A stretch of DNA of 64,000 nucleotides from Escherichia phage vB_EcoM-UFV11: the sequence record OP555982.1. One strand, 5' to 3'. The notes beneath the pieces are model-generated. The model was not told the origin of the DNA and searched no databases. It worked only from the letters and a program-made list of their open reading frames with translations. The first letter of the stretch is position 1, and the number at the start of each line of letters is the position of its first letter. The translations under genes and the position numbers were made by a program. Shown here one piece after another: positions 1-64,000 of this stretch.

Positions 1-272
1 ATCCTAAAATTAGACCACCAATGTCTAAAGAACACAGAAATAATATCTCAAACGGGCTTAAAGCAATCGTTCTTGAAGAAACATCCTGCGAATTCTGCGG
101 AATGATAGGCAAGAAATGCGTTATCGCAGCGCATAGAAATTTCTGCAAGAAAAATCCAAATGGACGCAAGAAAACTGAAAAGACTGGTACTTGCGTCCAT
201 TGTGGTAAAGTTACCACTTTCGGAAATTTATCAAGATGGCATAATGATAACTGTAAATATAAACTTAGCTAA
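1..272 (+). CDS. 3' fragment of a plus-strand ORF (5' end outside window); Cys/His-rich tail with two CxxC...H...C repeats, possibly a nuclease/homing-endonuclease-like DNA-binding tail
   Basis: Frame is open from position 3; residues CEFCG..AAHRNFC and CVHCG..WHNDNC form two zinc-finger-like repeats; opposite orientation to all neighbours. Confidence 0.3.
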   Translation, partial: PKIRPPMSKEHRNNISNGLKAIVLEETSCEFCGMIGKKCVIAAHRNFCKKNPNGRKKTEKTGTCVHCGKVTTFGNLSRWHNDNCKYKLS

Positions 273-1953
273 TCTTAGCTAAACTAAATCTACCAACTTT
301 TTCCATCTGAATATGCTGACCATATTCTTGTGGGTCATGGTCTTTATGTGAAATTATGAAGAAGTTGGTATCCTTCAAACCATCTAAAATTTTAGCTACA
401 TTTTTAATACCTTCAGCATCAAATGCACCGTCATACACTTCATCAAGAAATAAACAACTTATTTTAACACCTGAAACTTTTTCAGCAATATCACGCCAAG
501 TAAATAAAAGAGCAATATCAATTCGCGCTTTTTCACCTTGACTGAATGAAGCATAACTAAAATCTTCACGACCACGGGATTTAATTGTCTCATTAAATTC
601 TTCATCTAATGTAAACACATAATCCGCTTCCATTATTTTAAGATAATGGTTAATCTGCTTATTAAATAATGGAATGTACTTTTTAATAATAGCACCTTTA
701 ATACCAGAATCTTTGAGCATATCAGTCAAAATTCCTCGGTGGTATTTTTCCATTACTAAATTAGTTTTTGTCTTAACAATTTTATCAAGTTCTTCTTGAA
801 GCAGTGCTATTTCATCAGCATGGTCAATAAACTCAGAAGATGCTTTTTCTATAGCCGCTTTAACCTTTTTAGCTTTATCTACTGCTGCGATCAGAGATTG
901 CTTTTTATTGCGAATATCATTTGCCAACGACTGCTGGGTTTTAATATTATCTCGGTATTCATCAACAAGAACTTTTAAATTATCACGATGTGTTGAAAGA
1001 TGTTCAAACGAATGCGTGCATTCAGAAACTTTATCTTTAATTTTAGAAACAACTTTATCACCGGAACTTAATTGTGACAAACAGGTTGGACATAATCCAC
1101 CTTCGTGATACATATTAATGACTTTATTATACGAGTCAATTTTTGATTTAATTAAAACTGCTTCTTGACCGATTTTATTAAATGCATCAGTCGGGTCTTC
1201 ATCTAAAACAATATTAACTAATCTTTCATTAGCTTCTTCTATTTCCGATTTTAGCGTTCTAGCTTCTTTTGCCAAATCATCATACATATTTTGAAGACGA
1301 GTAAGGTTGTCACCCGTTAATTTTTTCTGGCGTTCAACGTTATCATTATATATTTTAATTTGTTGGATAATACTATCTTTTTTAACATCAAGCACTTGGT
1401 TTTGTGAATTTAATTCACGTATTAGTGCTTTATTAAGCTTATCCATTTCAGCTAATGTTCCTACCTCGAGCAGGTCTTCCACAAGCTTTCTTCGCGCAGG
1501 GGTCGACAAACCCATGAAAGGGGTATACCCTGCTGTACCAAGGACAACAATCTGCTTGAAACTGGCATATGACATTCCGATAAGCTGTTCAAATTCTGCT
1601 TGGAAATCTTTACTGCTGGCAGATTCATTAAGACGTGTACCGTTAACGGTGATTTCGAAAACGTTTGGTTTTTGTCCTCTTTTGATATAATACTTTTTCT
1701 CATCATATTCCATCCACAGTTCAACTAAAAGTTCTTTCTTATTTGTGCTGTTTATTAATTGACCTTTCTTTACATCACGAAATGGCTTGCCAAAAAGCCC
1801 AAATGTGATGGCTTCTAACATAGTAGACTTACCACCGCCATTTCGTCCAGTAATAAGAGTTTTTTGAACCTTATCTAATTGAATGTCAATAGGATTTCCA
1901 CCTACTGACATTATATTTTGATACCTAACTCGGTTTAGTTTAAAATTCTTCAC
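265..1953 (-). CDS. 46: recombination endonuclease ATPase subunit gp46 (Rad50/SbcC-like)
   Basis: 562-aa ORF; Walker A GRNGGGKST near N-terminus, long central coiled coil, C-terminal LFLDEV region; adjacent to gp47; length as T4 gp46. Confidence 0.9.
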   Translation of the reverse strand: MKNFKLNRVRYQNIMSVGGNPIDIQLDKVQKTLITGRNGGGKSTMLEAITFGLFGKPFRDVKKGQLINSTNKKELLVELWMEYDEKKYYIKRGQKPNVFEITVNGTRLNESASSKDFQAEFEQLIGMSYASFKQIVVLGTAGYTPFMGLSTPARRKLVEDLLEVGTLAEMDKLNKALIRELNSQNQVLDVKKDSIIQQIKIYNDNVERQKKLTGDNLTRLQNMYDDLAKEARTLKSEIEEANERLVNIVLDEDPTDAFNKIGQEAVLIKSKIDSYNKVINMYHEGGLCPTCLSQLSSGDKVVSKIKDKVSECTHSFEHLSTHRDNLKVLVDEYRDNIKTQQSLANDIRNKKQSLIAAVDKAKKVKAAIEKASSEFIDHADEIALLQEELDKIVKTKTNLVMEKYHRGILTDMLKDSGIKGAIIKKYIPLFNKQINHYLKIMEADYVFTLDEEFNETIKSRGREDFSYASFSQGEKARIDIALLFTWRDIAEKVSGVKISCLFLDEVYDGAFDAEGIKNVAKILDGLKDTNFFIISHKDHDPQEYGQHIQMEKVGRFSLAKIS

Positions 1954-2213
1954 AAAAGATTCCTTTTAATGTATCTTTTAGACCATTCTATCATATCATC
2001 ATAATCTAAAAAGTATTCATCAAATTCAGCCATGCAAACAACACCTTGTGCTGCTTTTGATGTGATATAAATTATTCCAACATATCTAGAATCTTCTTCG
2101 GTATAATCAATATTTGCTATGAATTCATCATTAATGTCAAATGTCGAAAACTTCACAGTATGCATCCTTAATACAAGATACAGCCATATCTTGTAATGAT
2201 TTAGGTGTATCAT
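1950..2213 (-). CDS. small hypothetical protein between genes 46 and 47 (start uncertain)
   Basis: 87-codon ORF, stop overlaps gp46 start; overlaps next ORF in another frame so the true start is probably internal. Confidence 0.35.
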   Translation of the reverse strand: MIHLNHYKIWLYLVLRMHTVKFSTFDINDEFIANIDYTEEDSRYVGIIYITSKAAQGVVCMAEFDEYFLDYDDMIEWSKRYIKRNLL

Positions 2214-11414: not shown

Positions 11415-11884
11415 TTTAAACTCTTTCTAAGCTGCTTCTTAAATGAAGCTATTAATTGTGTTTTAGTGTCAGATTCATTATATTCAAATCCTCTTTGAAG
11501 CATCTCGGCCATCATTTCCTCTTTTCCCAAACGAGAAAATTCCTTTGATTTATCTCCAACAAAGTTAGGGTGAATATTATTTTGGGTGTAATCGGATTTT
11601 AAATAAGTAAGTAAATTTTCTAACCATTCAAGATAATCAACACCTTGTCCCTTTAAGCCAGAACGATTAAATTTATGCTTCATTTGACCTTCTGCGGCAT
11701 TACAGAGATTACAAAGCAATCCACGCACCTTTCCTGCTTTCGGTCCATTTAATTCATGGTCATGGTCGAGGTGATTAGCTTGAACATCAGGATTTAGTTC
11801 TCGTTGGCAAATTAAACATTTACCATTTTGTGCATCATAAAATTTCTGTTTTTCTTCTTTGTATAATTTGCCAGTCAATAACAT
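11411..11884 (-). CDS. 49: endonuclease VII (Holliday junction resolvase)
   Basis: 157 aa, essentially the T4 gp49 sequence (MLLTGKLYKEEKQKFYDAQNGKCLICQREL...). Confidence 0.95.
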   Translation of the reverse strand: MLLTGKLYKEEKQKFYDAQNGKCLICQRELNPDVQANHLDHDHELNGPKAGKVRGLLCNLCNAAEGQMKHKFNRSGLKGQGVDYLEWLENLLTYLKSDYTQNNIHPNFVGDKSKEFSRLGKEEMMAEMLQRGFEYNESDTKTQLIASFKKQLRKSLK

Positions 11885-11925
11885 AATAAACCCTTACCTT
11901 AAATAGATAAGGGTATTTATTATTT

Positions 11926-12102
11926 TCAAGTATTGTAAAAGGCTCGATGCAATCGCTTATACTGCCGAATCATCTTTTTAGTAGGACGAGAATAAGTTCC
12001 TACACAAGTGGTCATATTAGGGTCGGTAGGACTTCCTTTAATAAAAAGTTTCCAAACCTTACCACCATTTAACTTTTCAGTATAAATCAATTCAGTTTTC
12101 AT
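11926..12102 (-). CDS. small basic hypothetical protein (58 aa)
   Basis: ATG overlaps stop of upstream ORF (TAATG); translation MKTELIYTEKLNGGKVWKLF...; below ORF-track cutoff. Confidence 0.35.
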   Translation of the reverse strand: MKTELIYTEKLNGGKVWKLFIKGSPTDPNMTTCVGTYSRPTKKMIRQYKRLHRAFYNT

Positions 12103-12566
12103 TAAAACGCTCGGTCAGAAAAAGATTTTTGGGTTTCAAGCCATTCAATATATTCTGCCGCAGCTTGCATCAAATTTCCTTCATAGCCATCGTTATTTTC
12201 TTGTGCAGCTAATTTAGCCAATGCGTATGAAATACGTTCACCTTGAAAATCAGCTTTAGGCTTCTGGACAACTTGATTAGTTCGCTCTACAACTTCTTCA
12301 ATTTCGCCATTTTCGACTGATTCAGTATTCCACAAGCACCAATACGTAATTGGCTTATCGTAGATGTTAATAATCTTTCCATCAGAAAGTTCAATTTCAA
12401 TAATTCCAGTGTCAGGCTCTATATCATCTTCACATTCTTTTGCAAGTTCACGAACTTTAAAGACAGTACCTGCACTAAGTTCCGGCCAGTAATTACATAG
12501 CCCTGTATCAGCACGATTAATTCTAAACCACTTATCTACTGTAATCATGTCCCATCTCCATATCAA
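12102..12566 (-). CDS. hypothetical acidic protein (occupies the pin/49.x position)
   Basis: 154-aa ORF. Confidence 0.5.
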   Translation of the reverse strand: MIWRWDMITVDKWFRINRADTGLCNYWPELSAGTVFKVRELAKECEDDIEPDTGIIEIELSDGKIINIYDKPITYWCLWNTESVENGEIEEVVERTNQVVQKPKADFQGERISYALAKLAAQENNDGYEGNLMQAAAEYIEWLETQKSFSDRAF

Positions 12567-22258: not shown

Positions 22259-22780
22259 TTATCCTTTCATTGAAGGTGTAACAGTTGTTAAATACTTAAT
22301 CATAGCTTCAGCTTCTGATTTTGATAATGAAATTTCTCCATTGTTTTGACGAATAGAAATAAAATCCGGATGACGGTCACCACCAGCTTTTAAAACACAC
22401 ATATAAGTATCAGTTTCATCTTCAATATCTGAAATGATTGAAGCAGTTCCGCATGAATGTGGTTTTTGATAAATCAATACAGCTTTTCTTCCACCATTTG
22501 ACTGTTCATAGGCTTTTAATACATCAAACAAATCAGTTCTTTTATCAATAGCTAAAATGTTATTTTCATCTTCAATGTTAAATCCTTCGGATACTTCATA
22601 AAGTGTTACCCATAAATCACCGATGTCAATAACAGCATTTCCTTTTCCACGACTTTCAAGAATATGACAAATTTTCTTTATTTCGTCATAACTCATTTTA
22701 ATAATATCATCTCCTTGAATAAGGAAGATGTCATTTTTAAATTTAACGCGAATTAAACCGCTTTCACTAGAAATAAACAT
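22259..22780 (-). CDS. hypothetical protein, tandem paralog 2
   Basis: 173 aa; C-terminus ISLSKSEAEAMIKYLTTVTPSM aligns with paralog 1. Confidence 0.55.
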   Translation of the reverse strand: MFISSESGLIRVKFKNDIFLIQGDDIIKMSYDEIKKICHILESRGKGNAVIDIGDLWVTLYEVSEGFNIEDENNILAIDKRTDLFDVLKAYEQSNGGRKAVLIYQKPHSCGTASIISDIEDETDTYMCVLKAGGDRHPDFISIRQNNGEISLSKSEAEAMIKYLTTVTPSMKG

Positions 22781-22786
22781 ATTTCC

Positions 22787-23344
22787 TCACTTTGAAATCA
22801 TAGTTGGAATAACAGAATCAAGATAAGTTTTTAGTGCAATAGCTTCGTCTTTGTTTAATGTAATGATATGTGATCGAAAATCGTCAATTTGACGAATAGA
22901 TACTACATCTCCCTCTTCATAGCATTTTGAAACATTTAAAATAGTTTCATCATTCTGATTACAGGAGTTAGTAATAATAGCATTACATTTTTTAAACCAT
23001 TTTAAATTATGTTTTCTTTTAGTAGAATCATAAAAATATTTAATGTTAGTTATAAAATTATCCCAATTATTAATTGATAAGCACATTGACTCGCTTTTAA
23101 TATTAAATCCTGGGCATGAAGAATAAAAATGAATTTTATGCTCATCATTAATGCTTACAATTTTATCAGTGTAAGCATATTCAATTTGGGTTAAACGAAC
23201 AATTTCACTAGGCGTAAAATATAACATGTCGTCTTCTTGCGTCAAACGATACATGTTATTTACTTTTTCGATCGCTAATTCACCAAAAAGCACACTATCT
23301 TCTAATACTAATCGTTTCATATTGATTCTCTTCGACTCACTCAC
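22787..23344 (-). CDS. hypothetical protein, tandem paralog 1 (start GTG 23344 or ATG 23320)
   Basis: C-terminus ITLNKDEAIALKTYLDSVIPTM aligns with paralog 2; shared ISIRQ/VSIRQ motif. Confidence 0.55.
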   Translation of the reverse strand: MSESKRINMKRLVLEDSVLFGELAIEKVNNMYRLTQEDDMLYFTPSEIVRLTQIEYAYTDKIVSINDEHKIHFYSSCPGFNIKSESMCLSINNWDNFITNIKYFYDSTKRKHNLKWFKKCNAIITNSCNQNDETILNVSKCYEEGDVVSIRQIDDFRSHIITLNKDEAIALKTYLDSVIPTMISK

Positions 23345-23346
23345 AA

Positions 23347-23451
23347 TTACATACTCCTCTGAATCATATCAATAATGTTGTTCACCAGATTATAAGTAAA
23401 CATTGGGTAATTATATTGAATCATCACATACACAACAAACAAAACTTTCAT
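23347..23451 (-). CDS. hydrophobic micro-ORF (34 aa)
   Basis: AGGAGA Shine-Dalgarno then ATG; MKVLFVVYVMIQYNYPMFTYNLVNNIIDMIQRSM; first ORF after promoter 23480-23509. Confidence 0.3.
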   Translation of the reverse strand: MKVLFVVYVMIQYNYPMFTYNLVNNIIDMIQRSM

Positions 23452-23479
23452 TCTCTTCTCCTTGGCAGTTGACAAGATT

Positions 23480-23509
23480 ACTATACCATAACCTTGCCAA
23501 CTTGTAAAC
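23480..23509 (-). promoter_or_regulatory. T4-type early promoter (GTTTAC-N18-TATAGT)
   Basis: GTTTAC 23509..23504, TATAGT 23485..23480. Confidence 0.55.
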
Positions 23510-23511
23510 CA

Positions 23512-23784
23512 TTAAATGACGTTTTCAATAAAATTCTGAAGCTTTGTGTGAGCATCAACCATGATTTTCATTTCTTCTTTGGCGAAAGCTGTACCTCTTT
23601 CCCGAGAAGAACACTCATAGTCAGAAACTGCATTAGCATATTCTTCAATTAGTTTCATTAAAAACATCTGCTTTTCAGTTTTCATTATTCCACCTAATCC
23701 CCGAGAAGAACACTCATAGTCAGAAACTGCATTAGCATATTCTTCAATTAGTTTCATTAAAAACATCTGCTTTTCAGTTTTCAT
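23512..23784 (-). CDS. small hypothetical protein carrying an in-frame 33-codon N-terminal duplication
   Basis: MKTEKQMFLMKLIEEYANAVSDYECSSR occurs twice in the 90-aa translation; second Met at 23685 would give the unduplicated 57-aa product. Confidence 0.5.
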   Translation of the reverse strand: MKTEKQMFLMKLIEEYANAVSDYECSSRGLGGIMKTEKQMFLMKLIEEYANAVSDYECSSRERGTAFAKEEMKIMVDAHTKLQNFIENVI

Positions 23785-23798
23785 TATTCCACCTAATC
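23601..23798. repeat. perfect 99-bp tandem direct duplication (2 copies)
   Basis: 23601-23699 and 23700-23798 identical by direct reading; duplicates the ribosome-binding site, start codon and first 28 codons of ORF 23512-23784 plus the 3' end of the upstream ORF. Confidence 0.85.
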
Positions 23799-23968
23799 AT
23801 TTCAAGATATTGAACTAACTTAGCTTTAGATTTATCCAAATCCTTTTTAGCTGCTTCTATACCGTCGTATGAATATCCTTCACAATGCTCAACTGCTAAT
23901 TGATATGAATCTATTTCAACATCACGTGCTAATTTAATGATTTTTTCAAACTGTTCGTGTGTCAGCAT
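23774..23968 (-). CDS. small hypothetical protein
   Basis: 64-aa ORF; stop overlaps downstream start. Confidence 0.5.
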   Translation of the reverse strand: MLTHEQFEKIIKLARDVEIDSYQLAVEHCEGYSYDGIEAAKKDLDKSKAKLVQYLEMIRWNNEN

Positions 23969-23970
23969 AC

Positions 23971-24174
23971 TTAAACTCTCGTATTGTGATCGATAATTTC
24001 ATCAAGAAACATATCTAAAGCTTCCACAGCATTATCAACTTTAGCTTCAAGTTCATCAATACCTTTATTTGCAATGCCTGACGAAAACCAAGCAAAGTCG
24101 CTAAGTTCCTCATCTGCTTTACGAATTAAAGCTACCAATTCCTTAATTTTATCCGCTTGTTCGATACTAATCAT
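23971..24174 (-). CDS. small acidic hypothetical protein
   Basis: 67 aa from [13 protein letters not shown]; ATG overlaps upstream stop. Confidence 0.5.
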   Translation of the reverse strand: MISIEQADKIKELVALIRKADEELSDFAWFSSGIANKGIDELEAKVDNAVEALDMFLDEIIDHNTRV

Positions 24175-24362
24175 TATTCCACCACATATGAAAGAGAGAA
24201 TATTGCACATGCCATGTGAGTTGCAACTTCATCACACATATTATAACGTTTCTTAAGAAGTTCTACAAGTTTTTCACTAGTAACTTCATCCATGTTGACG
24301 AAAAAATCACCATTAATGATGACGTAGATATTTCCTTCTTGATTGAGTGCTTCAATTTTCAT
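24174..24362 (-). CDS. small hypothetical protein
   Basis: 62 aa from [10 protein letters not shown]; ORF-track extension reads through the promoter. Confidence 0.5.
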
Positions 24363-43111: not shown

Positions 43112-44822
43112 TAACCTTAATTGGTTTGTTGGTGTTGTTGAAGATAGAATGGACCCATTAAAATTAGGTCGTGTTCGTGTTCGTGTGGTTGGTCTGCATC
43201 CACCACAAAGAGCACAAGGTGATGTAATGGGTATTCCAACTGAAAAATTGCCATGGATGTCAGTTATTCAGCCTATAACTTCGGCAGCTATGTCTGGAAT
43301 TGGAGGTTCCGTTACTGGACCGGTAGAAGGAACTAGAGTTTATGGTCATTTTTTGGACAAATGGAAAACTAATGGAATTGTTCTTGGCACGTATGGTGGA
43401 ATAGTTCGCGAAAAACCGAATAGACTTGAAGGATTTTCTGACCCGACTGGGCAATATCCTAGACGTTTAGGAAATGATACTAACGTACTAAACCAAGGCG
43501 GAGAAGTAGGATATGATTCGTCTTCTAACATTATCCAAGATAGTAACTTAGACACTGCAATAAATCCTGATGATAGACCACTATCAGAGATTCCAACTGA
43601 TGATAATCCAAATATGTCAATGGCTGAAATGCTTCGCCGTGATGAAGGATTAAGACTAAAAGTTTATTGGGATACCGAAGGATATCCGACAATTGGTATT
43701 GGTCATCTTATCATGAAGCAGCCAGTTCGTGATATGGCTCAAATTAATAAAGTTTTATCGAAACAAGTTGGTCGTGAAATTACTGGAAACCCAGGTTCTA
43801 TTACAATGGAAGAAGCGGTAACTTTATTTGAACGCGATTTGGCTGATATGCAACGTGACATTAAATCACATTCTAAAGTAGGACCAGTCTGGCAAGCTGT
43901 CAACCGTTCTCGTCAAATGGCATTAGAAAATATGGCATTTCAGATGGGTGTTGGCGGTGTAGCTAAATTTAACACAATGTTAACTGCTATGTTAGCAGGA
44001 GATTGGGAAAAAGCATATAAAGCTGGTCGTGATTCATTGTGGTATCAACAAACAAAAGGCCGTGCATCCCGTGTTACCATGATTATTCTTACGGGGAATT
44101 TGGAATCATATGGTGTTGAAGTGAAAACTCCAGCTAGGTCTTTGTCGGCAATGGCTGCTACTGTGGCGAAGTCTTCTGATCCAGCTGACCCTCCTATTCC
44201 AAATGACTCAAGAATTTTATTCAAAGAACCAGTTTCTTCATATAAAGGCGAATATCCTTATGTGCATACAATGGAAACTGAAAGTGGACATATTCAGGAA
44301 TTTGATGATACCCCTGGGCAAGAACGATATAGATTAGTTCATCCAACTGGAACTTATGAAGAAGTATCACCGTCAGGGAGAAGAACAAGAAAAACTGTTG
44401 ATAATTTGTATGATATAACCAACGCTGATGGTAATTTTTTGGTAGCCGGTGATAAAAAGACTAACGTCGGTGGTTCAGAAATTTATTATAACATGGATAA
44501 TCGTCTTCACCAAATAGATGGAAGCAATACAATATTTGTACGTGGCGATGAAACTAAGACGGTTGAAGGTAATGGAACTATCCTAGTTAAAGGTAATGTT
44601 ACTATTGTAGTTGAAGGTAATGCTGACATTACAGTTAAAGGAGATGCTACTACGTTAGTTGAAGGTAATCAAACTAATACAGTAAATGGAAATCTTTCTT
44701 GGAAAGTTGCTGGGACAGTTGATTGGGACGTTGGTGGTGATTGGACAGAAAAAATGGCATCTATGAGTTCTATTTCATCTGGTCAATACACAATTGATGG
44801 ATCGAGGATTGACATTGGCTAA
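43095..44822 (+). CDS. 5: baseplate hub/central spike protein gp5 with lysozyme domain
   Basis: 575 aa; internal lysozyme domain MAEMLRRDEGLRLKVYWDTEGYPTIGIGHL; C-terminal VxGxxxxx beta-helix repeats. Confidence 0.9.
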   Translation: MEMISNNLNWFVGVVEDRMDPLKLGRVRVRVVGLHPPQRAQGDVMGIPTEKLPWMSVIQPITSAAMSGIGGSVTGPVEGTRVYGHFLDKWKTNGIVLGTYGGIVREKPNRLEGFSDPTGQYPRRLGNDTNVLNQGGEVGYDSSSNIIQDSNLDTAINPDDRPLSEIPTDDNPNMSMAEMLRRDEGLRLKVYWDTEGYPTIGIGHLIMKQPVRDMAQINKVLSKQVGREITGNPGSITMEEAVTLFERDLADMQRDIKSHSKVGPVWQAVNRSRQMALENMAFQMGVGGVAKFNTMLTAMLAGDWEKAYKAGRDSLWYQQTKGRASRVTMIILTGNLESYGVEVKTPARSLSAMAATVAKSSDPADPPIPNDSRILFKEPVSSYKGEYPYVHTMETESGHIQEFDDTPGQERYRLVHPTGTYEEVSPSGRRTRKTVDNLYDITNADGNFLVAGDKKTNVGGSEIYYNMDNRLHQIDGSNTIFVRGDETKTVEGNGTILVKGNVTIVVEGNADITVKGDATTLVEGNQTNTVNGNLSWKVAGTVDWDVGGDWTEKMASMSSISSGQYTIDGSRIDIG

Positions 44823-50731: not shown

Positions 50732-51728
50732 TTCAAGTGTTATCTATCGTGCGATAGTTACTTCAAAATTTAGAACAGAAAAAATGTTGAATTTTTATAA
50801 TTCAATTGGAAGTGGTCCGGATAAAAACACTATCTTTATCACATTTGGAAGATCAGAACCGTGGTCATCAAATGAAAATGAGGTGGGCTTTGCCCCACCT
50901 TATCCTACCGATTCTGTATTAGGTGTAACTGACATGTGGACTCATATGATGGGAACAGTAAAAGTTCTTCCATCAATGCTTGATGCTGTTATTCCTCGCA
51001 GAGATTGGGGAGATACTAGATATCCGGATCCATACACATTTAGAATTAATGATATTGTAGTGTGCAACTCAGCTCCTTACAACGCTACTGAATCAGGCGC
51101 AGGCTGGTTAGTATATCGTTGTTTAGATGTTCCTGATACCGGAATGTGTTCAATAGCATCTTTAACTAATAAGGATGAATGTCTTAAATTAGGTGGAAAA
51201 TGGACTCCTTCTGCTAGGTCAATGACTCCTCCTGAAGGCCGAGGAGATGCTGAAGGAACAATTGAACCTGGCGATGGATATGTATGGGAATATCTTTTTG
51301 AGATTCCGCCTGATGTATCTATAAATAGATGCACGAATGAGTATATTGTAGTTCCTTGGCCTGAGGAATTAAAAGAAGACCCGACTAGATGGGGGTATGA
51401 AGATAATCTCACTTGGCAGCAAGATGATTTTGGATTAATTTACCGTGTTAAGGCAAATACTATCCGTTTTAAAGCATATTTAGATTCAGTTTATTTTCCT
51501 GAAGCTGCATTGCCGGGAAATAAAGGATTTAGACAAATATCAATAATTACGAATCCTCTTGAAGCTAAAGCTCATCCAAATGACCCAAATGTTAAAGCTG
51601 AAAAGGATTATTATGATCCGGAAGATTTAATGAGGCATTCGGGCGAAATGATTTATATGGAAAATAGGCCACCTATTATTATGGCAATGGATCAGACAGA
51701 AGAAATCAATATTCTGTTTACATTTTAA
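50724..51728 (+). CDS. 8: baseplate wedge protein gp8
   Basis: 334 aa. Confidence 0.9.
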   Translation: MNDSSVIYRAIVTSKFRTEKMLNFYNSIGSGPDKNTIFITFGRSEPWSSNENEVGFAPPYPTDSVLGVTDMWTHMMGTVKVLPSMLDAVIPRRDWGDTRYPDPYTFRINDIVVCNSAPYNATESGAGWLVYRCLDVPDTGMCSIASLTNKDECLKLGGKWTPSARSMTPPEGRGDAEGTIEPGDGYVWEYLFEIPPDVSINRCTNEYIVVPWPEELKEDPTRWGYEDNLTWQQDDFGLIYRVKANTIRFKAYLDSVYFPEAALPGNKGFRQISIITNPLEAKAHPNDPNVKAEKDYYDPEDLMRHSGEMIYMENRPPIIMAMDQTEEINILFTF

Positions 51729-63079: not shown

Positions 63080-64000
63080 ATGACTTTATTATCTCCGGGC
63101 ATTGAGCTCAAAGAAACTACGGTTCAAAGCACCGTGGTTAATAACTCTACTGGTACAGCAGCTTTGGCCGGTAAATTCCAGTGGGGTCCTGCTTTTCAGA
63201 TTAAACAGGTTACAAATGAAGTAGATTTAGTTAATACTTTTGGTCAACCAACCGCTGAAACTGCTGACTATTTTATGTCTGCGATGAATTTCTTGCAGTA
63301 CGGAAATGACTTACGAGTAGTTCGTGCTGTTGATAGAGATACCGCTAAAAACTCATCTCCGATTGCTGGTAATATTGAATACACAATTTCTACCCCAGGT
63401 AGTAACTATGCAGTTGGAGATAAAATCACGGTCAAATATGTTTCAGATGATATTGAAACTGAAGGTAAAATTACTGAAGTAGACGCAGATGGAAAAATTA
63501 AGAAAATTAATATTCCTACTGCAAAAATTATCGCTAAAGCAAAAGAAGTCGGTGAATATCCAACACTAGGTTCTAACTGGACTGCAGAAATTTCTTCATC
63601 TTCTTCCGGTTTAGCTGCAGTAATAACTCTTGGAAAAATTATTACTGATTCCGGTATTTTATTAGCTGAAATCGAGAGCGCTGAAACTGCTATGACAGCA
63701 GTTGATTTTCAGGCAAATCTTGAAAAATATGGAATTCCAGGAGTAGTAGCTCTCTATCCAGGCGAATTAGGCGATAAAATTGAAATTGAAATCGTATCTA
63801 AAGCTGACTATGCGAAAGGCGCTTCTGCATTACTCCCAATTTATCCAGGTGGTGGTACTCGTGCATCTACTGCTAAAGCGGTGTTTGGATATGGACCACA
63901 AACTGATTCACAGTACGCTATTATAGTTCGTCGAAATGATGCTATTGTTCAAAGCGTTGTTCTTTCAACTAAGCGTGGTGAAAAAGATATTTACGATAGT
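63080..64000 (+). CDS. 18: tail sheath protein gp18 (5' part, runs past window end)
   Basis: MTLLSPGIELKETTVQSTVVNNSTGTAALAGKFQWGPAFQIKQVTNEVDLVNTFGQP... open to the end of the window. Confidence 0.9.
   Translation, partial: MTLLSPGIELKETTVQSTVVNNSTGTAALAGKFQWGPAFQIKQVTNEVDLVNTFGQPTAETADYFMSAMNFLQYGNDLRVVRAVDRDTAKNSSPIAGNIEYTISTPGSNYAVGDKITVKYVSDDIETEGKITEVDADGKIKKINIPTAKIIAKAKEVGEYPTLGSNWTAEISSSSSGLAAVITLGKIITDSGILLAEIESAETAMTAVDFQANLEKYGIPGVVALYPGELGDKIEIEIVSKADYAKGASALLPIYPGGGTRASTAKAVFGYGPQTDSQYAIIVRRNDAIVQSVVLSTKRGEKDIYDS

What the first reader, a model, noticed from the sequence alone, without database searches (positions are those of the whole stretch)
23601..23798. Perfect 99-bp tandem duplication spanning a gene junction (in-frame 33-codon N-terminal repeat)
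Seen: positions 23601-23699 and 23700-23798 are identical by direct reading. The unit contains the last codons of ORF 23774-23968, the ribosome-binding region and the first 28 codons of ORF 23512-23784, so the downstream ORF reads MKTEKQMFLMKLIEEYANAVSDYECSSR twice in frame and there are two equivalent start sites. A perfect copy implies a very recent event, either a genuine variant under selection or an assembly artefact.
Basis: seen in the sequence. Interest (0 to 1): 0.5.

Follow-up and report, generated by a model that had tools for sequence, protein, structure and literature searches.

The report
Assembly artefact: leftover 99-bp contig overlap
The perfect 99-bp tandem repeat is really in the sequence, but it is almost certainly a genome-assembly leftover (the overlapping ends of a circular contig kept when the sequence was rotated), not a biological duplication.

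Summary
Window 23601-23699 and 23700-23798 are identical, form exactly 2.0 copies, and are the only exact direct repeat of 30 bp or more in the 64 kb. The window is a T4-like phage (Tequatrovirus). After deleting one copy it matches Escherichia phage vB_EcoM-UFV09 (MZ291552.2) at 63,901 of 63,901 bases, and that record has one copy here. All 491 phage records containing the unit have one copy. The duplication junction is absent from three other public collections. Sibling assemblies from the same laboratory each carry their own perfect 99-bp tandem repeat at a different site. MZ291552.2 has one at 148775 in the long tail fibre gene. UFV10 has one at 11793 in an ADP-ribosyltransferase gene. UFV06 has one at 83384 in a baseplate wedge gene. 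Each of these is single-copy in the other assemblies. MZ291552.2 has rIIA at exactly the T4 reference coordinates, and two siblings start 11 bases later. This is what a de Bruijn assembler leaves when the k-base end overlap (k = 99) of a circular contig is not trimmed before the contig is rotated. The 90-aa "N-terminal repeat" protein is therefore not real. The true gene is the 57-aa mobD.2a-like DUF7438 protein. Interest is low, except as a curation flag for three GenBank records.

The parts
23601..23699 (.). Copy 1 of the 99-bp unit. On the gene (minus) strand this is the downstream copy. It is contiguous with the rest of the genuine 57-aa gene.
   Evidence: identical to 23700-23798.
23700..23798 (.). 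Copy 2 of the 99-bp unit. On the gene (minus) strand this is the upstream copy. It is contiguous with the end of the 64-aa mobD.3-like gene. One of the two copies is surplus. Deleting either restores the sequence of MZ291552.2.
   Evidence: the window minus one copy has 0 mismatches over 63,901 nt against MZ291552.2 32002-95902.
23680..23719 (.). The novel junction (23699|23700, ...CACCTAATC|CCCGAGAAG...). This is the only sequence that exists solely because of the duplication. It is inferred to be the place where the two ends of the original contig were joined.
   Evidence: The 40-mer gave 0 hits in viral contigs, metagenome contigs and genome contigs. In the phage collection, the 80-nt query centred on this junction (window 23660-23739) gave one place per record in all 487 records, and the 15 listed rows are two pieces spanning a single 99-nt stretch.
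23512..23784 (-). A 90-aa ORF created by the duplication: 28 aa, a GLGGI linker, then the normal 57-aa protein. It is judged not to be a real gene product.
   Evidence: ORF. Pfam DUF7438 is matched in 2 stretches, the full one at residues 34-88; no gene with exactly this product is on record in the assembly index.
23512..23685 (-). The genuine gene: a 57-aa mobD.2a-like protein of family DUF7438 (PF24219).
   Evidence: annotated as QWT76935.1, 57 aa, in MZ291552.2; residues 1-55 match profile positions 1-56 of 57, E=3.7e-15; named mobD.2a in the T6 and RB51 records.
23774..23968 (-). A 64-aa mobD.3-like gene, a DUF7438 paralog. Its last codons and stop lie inside the unit, and its protein is unchanged by the duplication.
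   Evidence: PF24219, E=6.6e-17. QWT76934.1; mobD.3 in the AR1 and RB51 records.
23971..24210 (-). The third tandem DUF7438 paralog, mobD.4-like by position. It is context only and not part of the repeat.
   Evidence: PF24219, E=1.6e-15; annotated from an internal start as QWT76933.1.

Best explanation
The second 99-bp copy is an assembly or finishing artefact. T4-like genomes are circularly permuted, so a de Bruijn-graph assembler returns the genome as a cycle, cut at an arbitrary point and written as a linear contig whose first and last k bases are identical. Here k = 99. The depositors then rotated the contig so that it starts at the T4 reference origin, without trimming the overlap. The two contig ends thereby became adjacent inside the record, giving a perfect tandem repeat of exactly k bases. 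In this assembly the arbitrary cut fell on the mobD.3/mobD.2a gene junction. Because 99 is a multiple of 3 the repeat is in frame, which fuses 33 extra codons onto the 57-aa gene and raises no frameshift warning. What is shown: the repeat itself, its absence from the same genome's current record, and same-length repeats at other sites in sibling assemblies. It is also shown that MZ291552.2 is at the T4 origin and two sibling records start 11 bases later. What is inferred: that 99 was the assembler's k, and that the window comes from an earlier or alternative assembly of UFV09, most likely MZ291552.1.
For: (1) The window minus one copy matches MZ291552.2 (phage vB_EcoM-UFV09) with 0 mismatches over 63,901 nt, and that record has one copy at this site. 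(2) All 491 phage records matching the unit have exactly one place in one piece. In one search the 40 listed records, including four 100% identical siblings, each span 902 nt against the 1001-nt query. (3) The junction 40-mer has 0 hits in IMG/VR, JGI metagenomes and GTDB genomes, and the 90-aa product is not on record. (4) Sibling assemblies hold perfect period-99 tandem repeats at other sites. MZ291552.2 has one at 148775/148874 in the long tail fibre CDS, which is 3969 nt against 3870 nt in UFV10, UFV06 and UFV05. UFV10 (OP555981.1) has one at 11793/11892 in an ADP-ribosyltransferase CDS, which is 702 nt against 603 nt, with flanks at 0 mismatches over 1801 nt. UFV06 (OP555980.1) has one at 83384/83483 in a baseplate wedge CDS, which is 1104 nt against 1005 nt. 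Each unit is single-copy in every other assembly that was examined at that site: the tail fibre unit in UFV10, UFV06 and UFV05; the ADP-ribosyltransferase unit in UFV09 v.2; the baseplate unit in the window and UFV09 v.2. (5) Subtracting 99 gives 165,760, 165,760 and 165,759 bp for UFV09 v.2, UFV10 and UFV06, which is one common unit length. (6) MZ291552.2 has rIIA at complement(12..2189), exactly as in T4 NC_000866.4, so it was rotated to the reference origin. UFV10 and UFV06 start 11 bases later, at the rIIA stop. (7) The four exact runs are 99, 99, 100 and 99 nt, so the junctions have no microhomology beyond one chance base. [quoted passage not shown]
Against: No reads were available, so the absence of junction-spanning reads is not shown. 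The assembler and k value used for these records are not stated in anything I could read; the one paper naming UFV09 has no sequencing methods. That 99 is a usual k value in SPAdes or MEGAHIT lists is my own background knowledge. The window's own source record is not in the searched phage collection, so its link to MZ291552.1 is inference. UFV05 shows no 99-bp excess at any landmark, so the pipeline did not leave an overlap in every case.
Confidence: 0.95

Rival explanations
1. A genuine, very recent tandem duplication in the sequenced phage stock. It would have arisen by replication slippage or illegitimate recombination and would give a DUF7438 (mobD.2a-like) protein with a duplicated N-terminal half, while the wild-type 57-aa protein is still made from the second start.
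For: The repeat is in frame, keeps both ribosome-binding sites and start codons, and leaves the upstream gene intact, so it would probably be tolerated. From my own knowledge, T4 is known to form tandem duplications.
Against: The current record of the same genome lacks it, with 0 other differences in 63.9 kb. All 491 relatives are single-copy. The junction is found nowhere else. Three sibling assemblies each have a perfect repeat of exactly 99 bp at an unrelated site, which independent biological events would not produce. There is no microhomology at the junction. The DUF7438 profile is a single 57-position domain covered end to end by the 57-aa form.
Confidence: 0.03
2. An artefact of another kind that is unrelated to an assembler k value. 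Examples are a manual editing or joining error, a circularisation tool adding a fixed 99-nt overlap, or reference-guided scaffolding.
For: The outcome would look the same: a perfect internal repeat that is absent from other assemblies. The assembler is undocumented. The small offsets between the sibling records (start points differing by 11 nt) show manual or semi-manual handling.
Against: A constant length of exactly 99 in four separate assemblies at arbitrary sites points to a fixed program parameter rather than hand editing. An odd number in the range of usual de Bruijn k values fits a k-mer overlap best. This rival differs from the best explanation only in the tool responsible.
Confidence: 0.1
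3. A real low-frequency subpopulation variant that the assembler happened to incorporate into the consensus.
For: None specific. Phage lysates are heterogeneous, and tandem duplications can be present at low frequency.
Against: The evidence is the same as for the genuine-duplication rival. It also does not explain the 99-bp repeats at three other sites in sibling assemblies.
Confidence: 0.01

Closest known systems
k-mer-length terminal overlaps of circular or permuted phage contigs from de Bruijn assemblers (for example the '127 bp artefactual DTRs' of SPAdes)
   Same: It is a perfect direct repeat of fixed, assembler-determined length. It arises because a circular or circularly permuted genome is written as a linear contig. 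It is absent from the real DNA and is routinely removed by careful curators (PMC5923482; PMC9331655).
   Different: Here the length is 99 rather than 127. The repeat is internal and tandem rather than at the two ends of the record, because the contig was rotated to the T4 origin before the overlap was trimmed.
Internal repeats of about 79 bp in short-read-only (Shovill) assemblies of przondoviruses, confirmed to be artefacts in most of the affected phages by Sanger sequencing (PMC10438801)
   Same: They are short repeats inside deposited-style phage assemblies, with a length typical of an assembler k value. They were not supported by read depth, were confirmed to be artefacts in most phages by Sanger sequencing, and were removed on re-assembly.
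   Different: Those lay near or within true direct terminal repeats of T7-like genomes. This one lies at an arbitrary point of a circularly permuted T4-like genome.
Genuine tandem duplications of phage T4 (for example rII-region duplications known from classical genetics; my own knowledge, not checked here)
   Same: Head-to-tail duplication in a T4-type genome.
   Different: As far as I recall, the classical cases are kilobases long, are selected genetically and are joined at short sequence homologies. This repeat is 99 bp, has no junction homology and is not reproducible between assemblies of the same phage.

Membership tests
Assembler k-mer end-overlap artefact (rotated circular contig) | The two copies are 100% identical and form exactly two copies. 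| tested here: met
   99/99 identical, 2.0 copies, no extension on either side.
Assembler k-mer end-overlap artefact (rotated circular contig) | The repeat is absent from an independent assembly or record of the same genome. | tested here: met
   MZ291552.2 is single-copy here, with 0 mismatches over 63,901 nt otherwise. UFV05, UFV06 and UFV10 are also single-copy.
Assembler k-mer end-overlap artefact (rotated circular contig) | Other assemblies from the same pipeline carry repeats of the same fixed length at different, arbitrary positions. | tested here: met
   period-99 perfect tandem repeats at MZ291552.2 148775, OP555981.1 11793 and OP555980.1 83384. Each is single-copy in every other assembly examined at that site. 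UFV05 shows none.
Assembler k-mer end-overlap artefact (rotated circular contig) | The genome is circular or circularly permuted, and the record was rotated to a chosen origin after assembly. | tested here: met
   rIIA is at complement(12..2189) in both MZ291552.2 and T4 NC_000866.4. The organism is a Tequatrovirus. That T4-type genomes are circularly permuted is established knowledge.
Assembler k-mer end-overlap artefact (rotated circular contig) | The repeat length equals the final k used by the assembler. | not testable with these tools
   The assembly method is not given in the only paper that names the phage, and the tool does not return record comments. 99 is odd and, from my own knowledge, a common k in SPAdes and MEGAHIT lists.
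Assembler k-mer end-overlap artefact (rotated circular contig) | No sequencing reads span the repeat junction with unique sequence on both sides. | not testable with these tools
   No read data are accessible.
Biological tandem duplication (slippage or illegitimate recombination) | Short homology at the duplication end points, so that the array is longer than two exact copies. | tested here: not met
   the array is exactly 198 nt, and the flanking bases differ from the unit's terminal bases.
Biological tandem duplication (slippage or illegitimate recombination) | Reproducible presence in the same phage, or presence in relatives. | tested here: not met
   (0 of 491 records). (junction absent from three collections).
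DUF7438 (PF24219) small proteins of T4-like phages (mobD.2a / mobD.3 / mobD.4) | A match to the Pfam profile above the gathering score over the full 57-position domain. | tested here: met
   the 57-aa form scores 56.5 bits (cut-off 25), residues 1-55 against profile positions 1-56 of 57; the 64-aa and 79-aa neighbours score 62.1 and 57.6 bits. The 90-aa form adds only a partial extra copy (2 stretches).

The most novel reading that the evidence does not exclude
The duplication is physically present in the phage stock that gave this assembly. That would make it a de novo in-frame 33-codon tandem duplication producing a mobD.2a-like DUF7438 protein with a doubled N-terminal helix, alongside the wild-type protein from the internal start. 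The 99-bp repeats in the sibling records would then be an unrelated coincidence.
Probability: 0.02. Interest if true: 0.2.

Novelty: not a real feature. Interest (0 to 1): 0.06.

Why it matters
There is no biological significance, because the 90-aa "N-terminal repeat" protein should not be believed. The practical value lies in curation. The same artefact sits in three current GenBank records and lengthens real proteins by 33 residues. These are the long tail fibre protein in MZ291552.2, an ADP-ribosyltransferase in OP555981.1 and a baseplate wedge protein in OP555980.1. Such insertions can mislead comparative or structural work on receptor-binding proteins. The case also gives genome scans a simple rule: treat a perfect tandem repeat of odd, k-like length (55, 77, 79, 99 or 127) in a circular or permuted genome as an assembly artefact until reads show otherwise.

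Tried and rejected
(1) I looked for the fused 90-aa protein in the assembly gene index. It is not on record. (2) I scanned IMG/VR, JGI metagenome contigs and GTDB genome contigs for the exact 40-nt junction. There were no hits in any of them, so there is no independent occurrence, and the window's own source is not in those collections either. (3) I looked for the assembly methods of the UFV phages. The only paper naming vB_EcoM-UFV09 (PMC8468216) has no sequencing section, and a search for the sibling names found only an unrelated cyanobacteria paper. The assembler and k therefore remain inferred. (4) I considered microhomology-mediated duplication and rejected it, because the array is exactly 198 nt. 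(5) I considered T4 biological terminal redundancy and rejected it, because from established knowledge that redundancy is kilobases long and has no fixed ends, whereas this repeat is 99 bp. (6) I considered a conserved family feature, meaning DUF7438 proteins with a doubled N-terminus. I rejected it because the family profile is a single 57-position domain that the 57-aa form covers end to end, and all 491 relatives are single-copy. I ran no further search on this. (7) I did not fetch UFV05 in full. Its landmarks show no +99 shift but several small indels.

Full report
THE OBSERVATION. Positions 23601-23699 and 23700-23798 are identical (direct reading; string comparison). Tandem Repeats Finder reports one array at 23601-23798 with period 99, 2.0 copies, 100% matches, no indels and score 396. 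The array is exactly 198 nt. The base before copy 1 is T whereas the unit ends in C, and the base after copy 2 is A whereas the unit starts with C, so there is no microhomology at the junction. It is the only exact direct repeat of 30 bp or more in the whole 64 kb window, so chance is not an issue. The gene anatomy is also right. All genes here are on the minus strand. The unit contains the last codons and stop of the 64-aa ORF 23774-23968, the ribosome-binding region, and the ATG plus 28 codons of the next ORF. The listed ORF 23512-23784 is therefore 90 aa, made of MKTEKQMFLMKLIEEYANAVSDYECSSR, then GLGGI, then the same 28 residues again and the rest of the protein. A second, equivalent start lies at 23685.

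WHAT THE REGION IS. The window is a T4-like phage (Tequatrovirus). A 1-kb query around the repeat hits 500 phage records at 90-100% identity. The ORFs are the mobD.2a, mobD.3 and mobD.4 genes, as named in the AR1, RB32, RB51 and T6 records. All three are small proteins of Pfam family DUF7438 (PF24219). On one side lie two y05I-like paralogs, and on the other lie a DUF5856 protein and the rI antiholin. The single-copy form of the affected gene is 57 aa and covers the 57-position DUF7438 profile end to end. The 90-aa form only adds a partial extra copy.

THE SAME GENOME WITHOUT THE REPEAT. The four best hits are Escherichia phages vB_EcoM-UFV09, UFV05, UFV06 and UFV10, all from one Brazilian laboratory. 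They are 100% identical to the query but span 902 nt of record against 1001 nt of query. I fetched MZ291552.2 (UFV09) and compared it base by base. The window with one copy deleted has 0 mismatches over 48,999 nt and over the full 63,901 nt, corresponding to record positions 32002-95902. In that record the gene is annotated as 57 aa (QWT76935.1). The window is therefore the same genome as a deposited record and differs only by the extra 99 bp.

RELATIVES AND OTHER COLLECTIONS. With the 99-nt unit as query, 491 phage records match, and every one has exactly one place made of one piece. With an 80-nt query centred on the novel junction, all 487 matching records have one place each. In the listed rows that place consists of two pieces spanning a single 99-nt stretch, so the junction itself is not seen in them. 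The exact 40-nt junction has no hit in IMG/VR, in the JGI metagenome contigs or in the GTDB genome contigs. No gene with the 90-aa product is on record in the assembly index.

THE DECISIVE RESULT. The coordinates of the sibling records did not add up. In UFV10, rIIA starts 11 nt earlier than in UFV09, but the mobD locus lies 88 nt later. That implies 99 extra bases upstream. Because the two records have the same total length, it also implies 99 fewer bases downstream. Scanning the fetched sequences for exact repeats confirmed both predictions.
- UFV10 (OP555981.1) has a perfect period-99 tandem repeat at 11793/11892. It lies inside an ADP-ribosyltransferase CDS of 702 nt, against 603 nt in UFV09.
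- MZ291552.2 has one at 148775/148874. It lies inside the long tail fibre CDS of 3969 nt, against 3870 nt in UFV10, UFV06 and UFV05.
- UFV06 (OP555980.1) has one at 83384/83483. It lies inside a baseplate wedge CDS of 1104 nt, against 1005 nt in UFV09.
Each unit is single-copy in every other assembly that was examined at that site, including the window for the UFV06 unit. With one copy removed the flanks are identical or nearly so: 0 mismatches over 1801 nt and 2 over 27,302 nt. Subtracting 99 gives 165,760, 165,760 and 165,759 bp for UFV09 v.2, UFV10 and UFV06. Counting the window, four assemblies of essentially one genome each contain one perfect tandem repeat of exactly 99 bp at four unrelated sites. 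The exact runs are 99, 99, 100 and 99 nt, so no junction has homology beyond one chance base.

MECHANISM. The length is fixed, the position is arbitrary and the identity is perfect. That combination points to a program parameter and not to biology. MZ291552.2 has rIIA at complement(12..2189), exactly as in the T4 reference NC_000866.4, so the depositors rotated their contig to the T4 origin. UFV10 and UFV06 start 11 bases later, at the rIIA stop. From established knowledge, T4-type genomes are circularly permuted and assemble as a cycle. A de Bruijn assembler writes such a cycle as a linear contig whose two ends share k bases. If the contig is cut at a new origin and the old ends are joined without trimming, the overlap becomes an internal tandem repeat of exactly k bases. 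[quoted passage not shown] Internal repeats of about 79 bp in short-read phage assemblies were confirmed to be artefacts in most of the affected phages by Sanger sequencing (PMC10438801). That the value here was k = 99 is inferred. From my own knowledge 99 is a usual entry in SPAdes and MEGAHIT k lists, but no methods were available to confirm it. Because 99 is divisible by 3, each repeat is in frame and raises no frameshift flag, which is probably why none was noticed.

WHERE THE WINDOW COMES FROM. Its own record is not in the phage collection searched, since only four records reach 99% identity or more and all are single-copy here. MZ291552 is at version 2. In v.2 the protein accessions run in descending order, so the record was reverse-complemented. 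The long tail fibre protein also has a newly issued accession (UXR08759.1), so that protein changed between versions. This fits a re-assembly in which the arbitrary contig break moved from the mobD.3/mobD.2a junction to gene 34. I therefore infer that the window derives from the first version, MZ291552.1, or from another assembly of the same phage. This is not shown.

RIVALS. A genuine recent duplication would be tolerated, since both start sites and the upstream gene are intact. It would, however, require the current record of the same phage to have lost it, and three other exactly 99-bp perfect duplications to have arisen independently in sibling phages. I put this at about 3%. An artefact made by some other tool or by manual joining would look the same and differs only in which program is responsible. 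A low-frequency subpopulation variant has no specific support.

VERDICT. The feature is not biological. Interest is low, apart from the curation point that three current GenBank records carry the same artefact inside real genes: the long tail fibre gene, an ADP-ribosyltransferase gene and a baseplate wedge gene.

Noticed in passing
L013 (MZ291552.2) record positions 148775-148972: The current GenBank record of UFV09 has its own perfect 99-bp tandem repeat inside the long tail fibre (gene 34-like) CDS 146712..150680. This makes the CDS 3969 nt against 3870 nt in UFV10, UFV06 and UFV05, so the annotated receptor-binding fibre protein UXR08759.1 is probably 33 residues too long.
   Followed up: yes
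L011 (OP555981.1, UFV10) positions 11793-11990: A perfect period-99 tandem repeat lies inside the ADP-ribosyltransferase CDS 11686..12387, which is 702 nt against 603 nt in UFV09. It is single-copy in MZ291552.2, with identical flanks.
   Followed up: yes
L019 (OP555980.1, UFV06) record positions 83384-83581: A perfect 99-bp tandem repeat lies inside the baseplate wedge subunit CDS 82615..83718, which is 1104 nt against 1005 nt. The unit is single-copy in the window (at 51493) and in MZ291552.2.
   Followed up: yes
L007 (OP572230.1, UFV05) positions 12-2196: In UFV05 rIIA is annotated as two CDS (12..1385 and 1438..2196) and the region is 7 nt longer than in UFV09. This could be a frameshifting insertion, either a real rapid-lysis rII mutant or a sequencing error. 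UFV05 also shows about +8 nt in 68-147 kb and +1 nt later on, and has no 99-bp excess.
   Followed up: no
window 44562-44693: TRF reports imperfect period-24/48 repeats. They lie in frame in the C-terminal part of the baseplate hub/lysozyme (gp5-like) gene and translate to octapeptide repeats VEGNGTIL VKGNVTIV VEGNADIT VKGDATTL VEGNQTNT. From my own knowledge this is the known VxGxxxxx beta-helix of the T4 cell-puncturing needle. It is ordinary.
   Followed up: partly
window 22259-24210 (minus strand): There are ancient tandem gene paralogy runs next to the artefact. Three consecutive DUF7438 genes lie at 23512-23685, 23774-23968 and 23971-24210. Two consecutive y05I-like putative transcription factor genes lie at 22259-22780 and 22787-23344. 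These are real, diverged gene duplications conserved across T4-like phages.
   Followed up: partly
L012 (MZ291552.2) record positions 118564 and 133872; the same pair in UFV06 at 118651 and 133959: A 54-bp exact dispersed direct repeat, 15.3 kb apart and outside the window, is present in both UFV09 and UFV06. It is probably a genuine repeated intergenic element. It was not examined.
   Followed up: no
MZ291552.2, OP555980.1, OP555981.1, OP572230.1 (whole records): Four phages deposited as separate isolates under separate taxids are essentially one genome. They are 100% identical over 24 kb, and UFV06 shows 2 mismatches in 27.3 kb against the window. Apart from assembly artefacts and start-point offsets of 11 nt, the remaining differences seen are these mismatches and a few small indels (UFV05; one nucleotide in UFV06).
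   Followed up: partly
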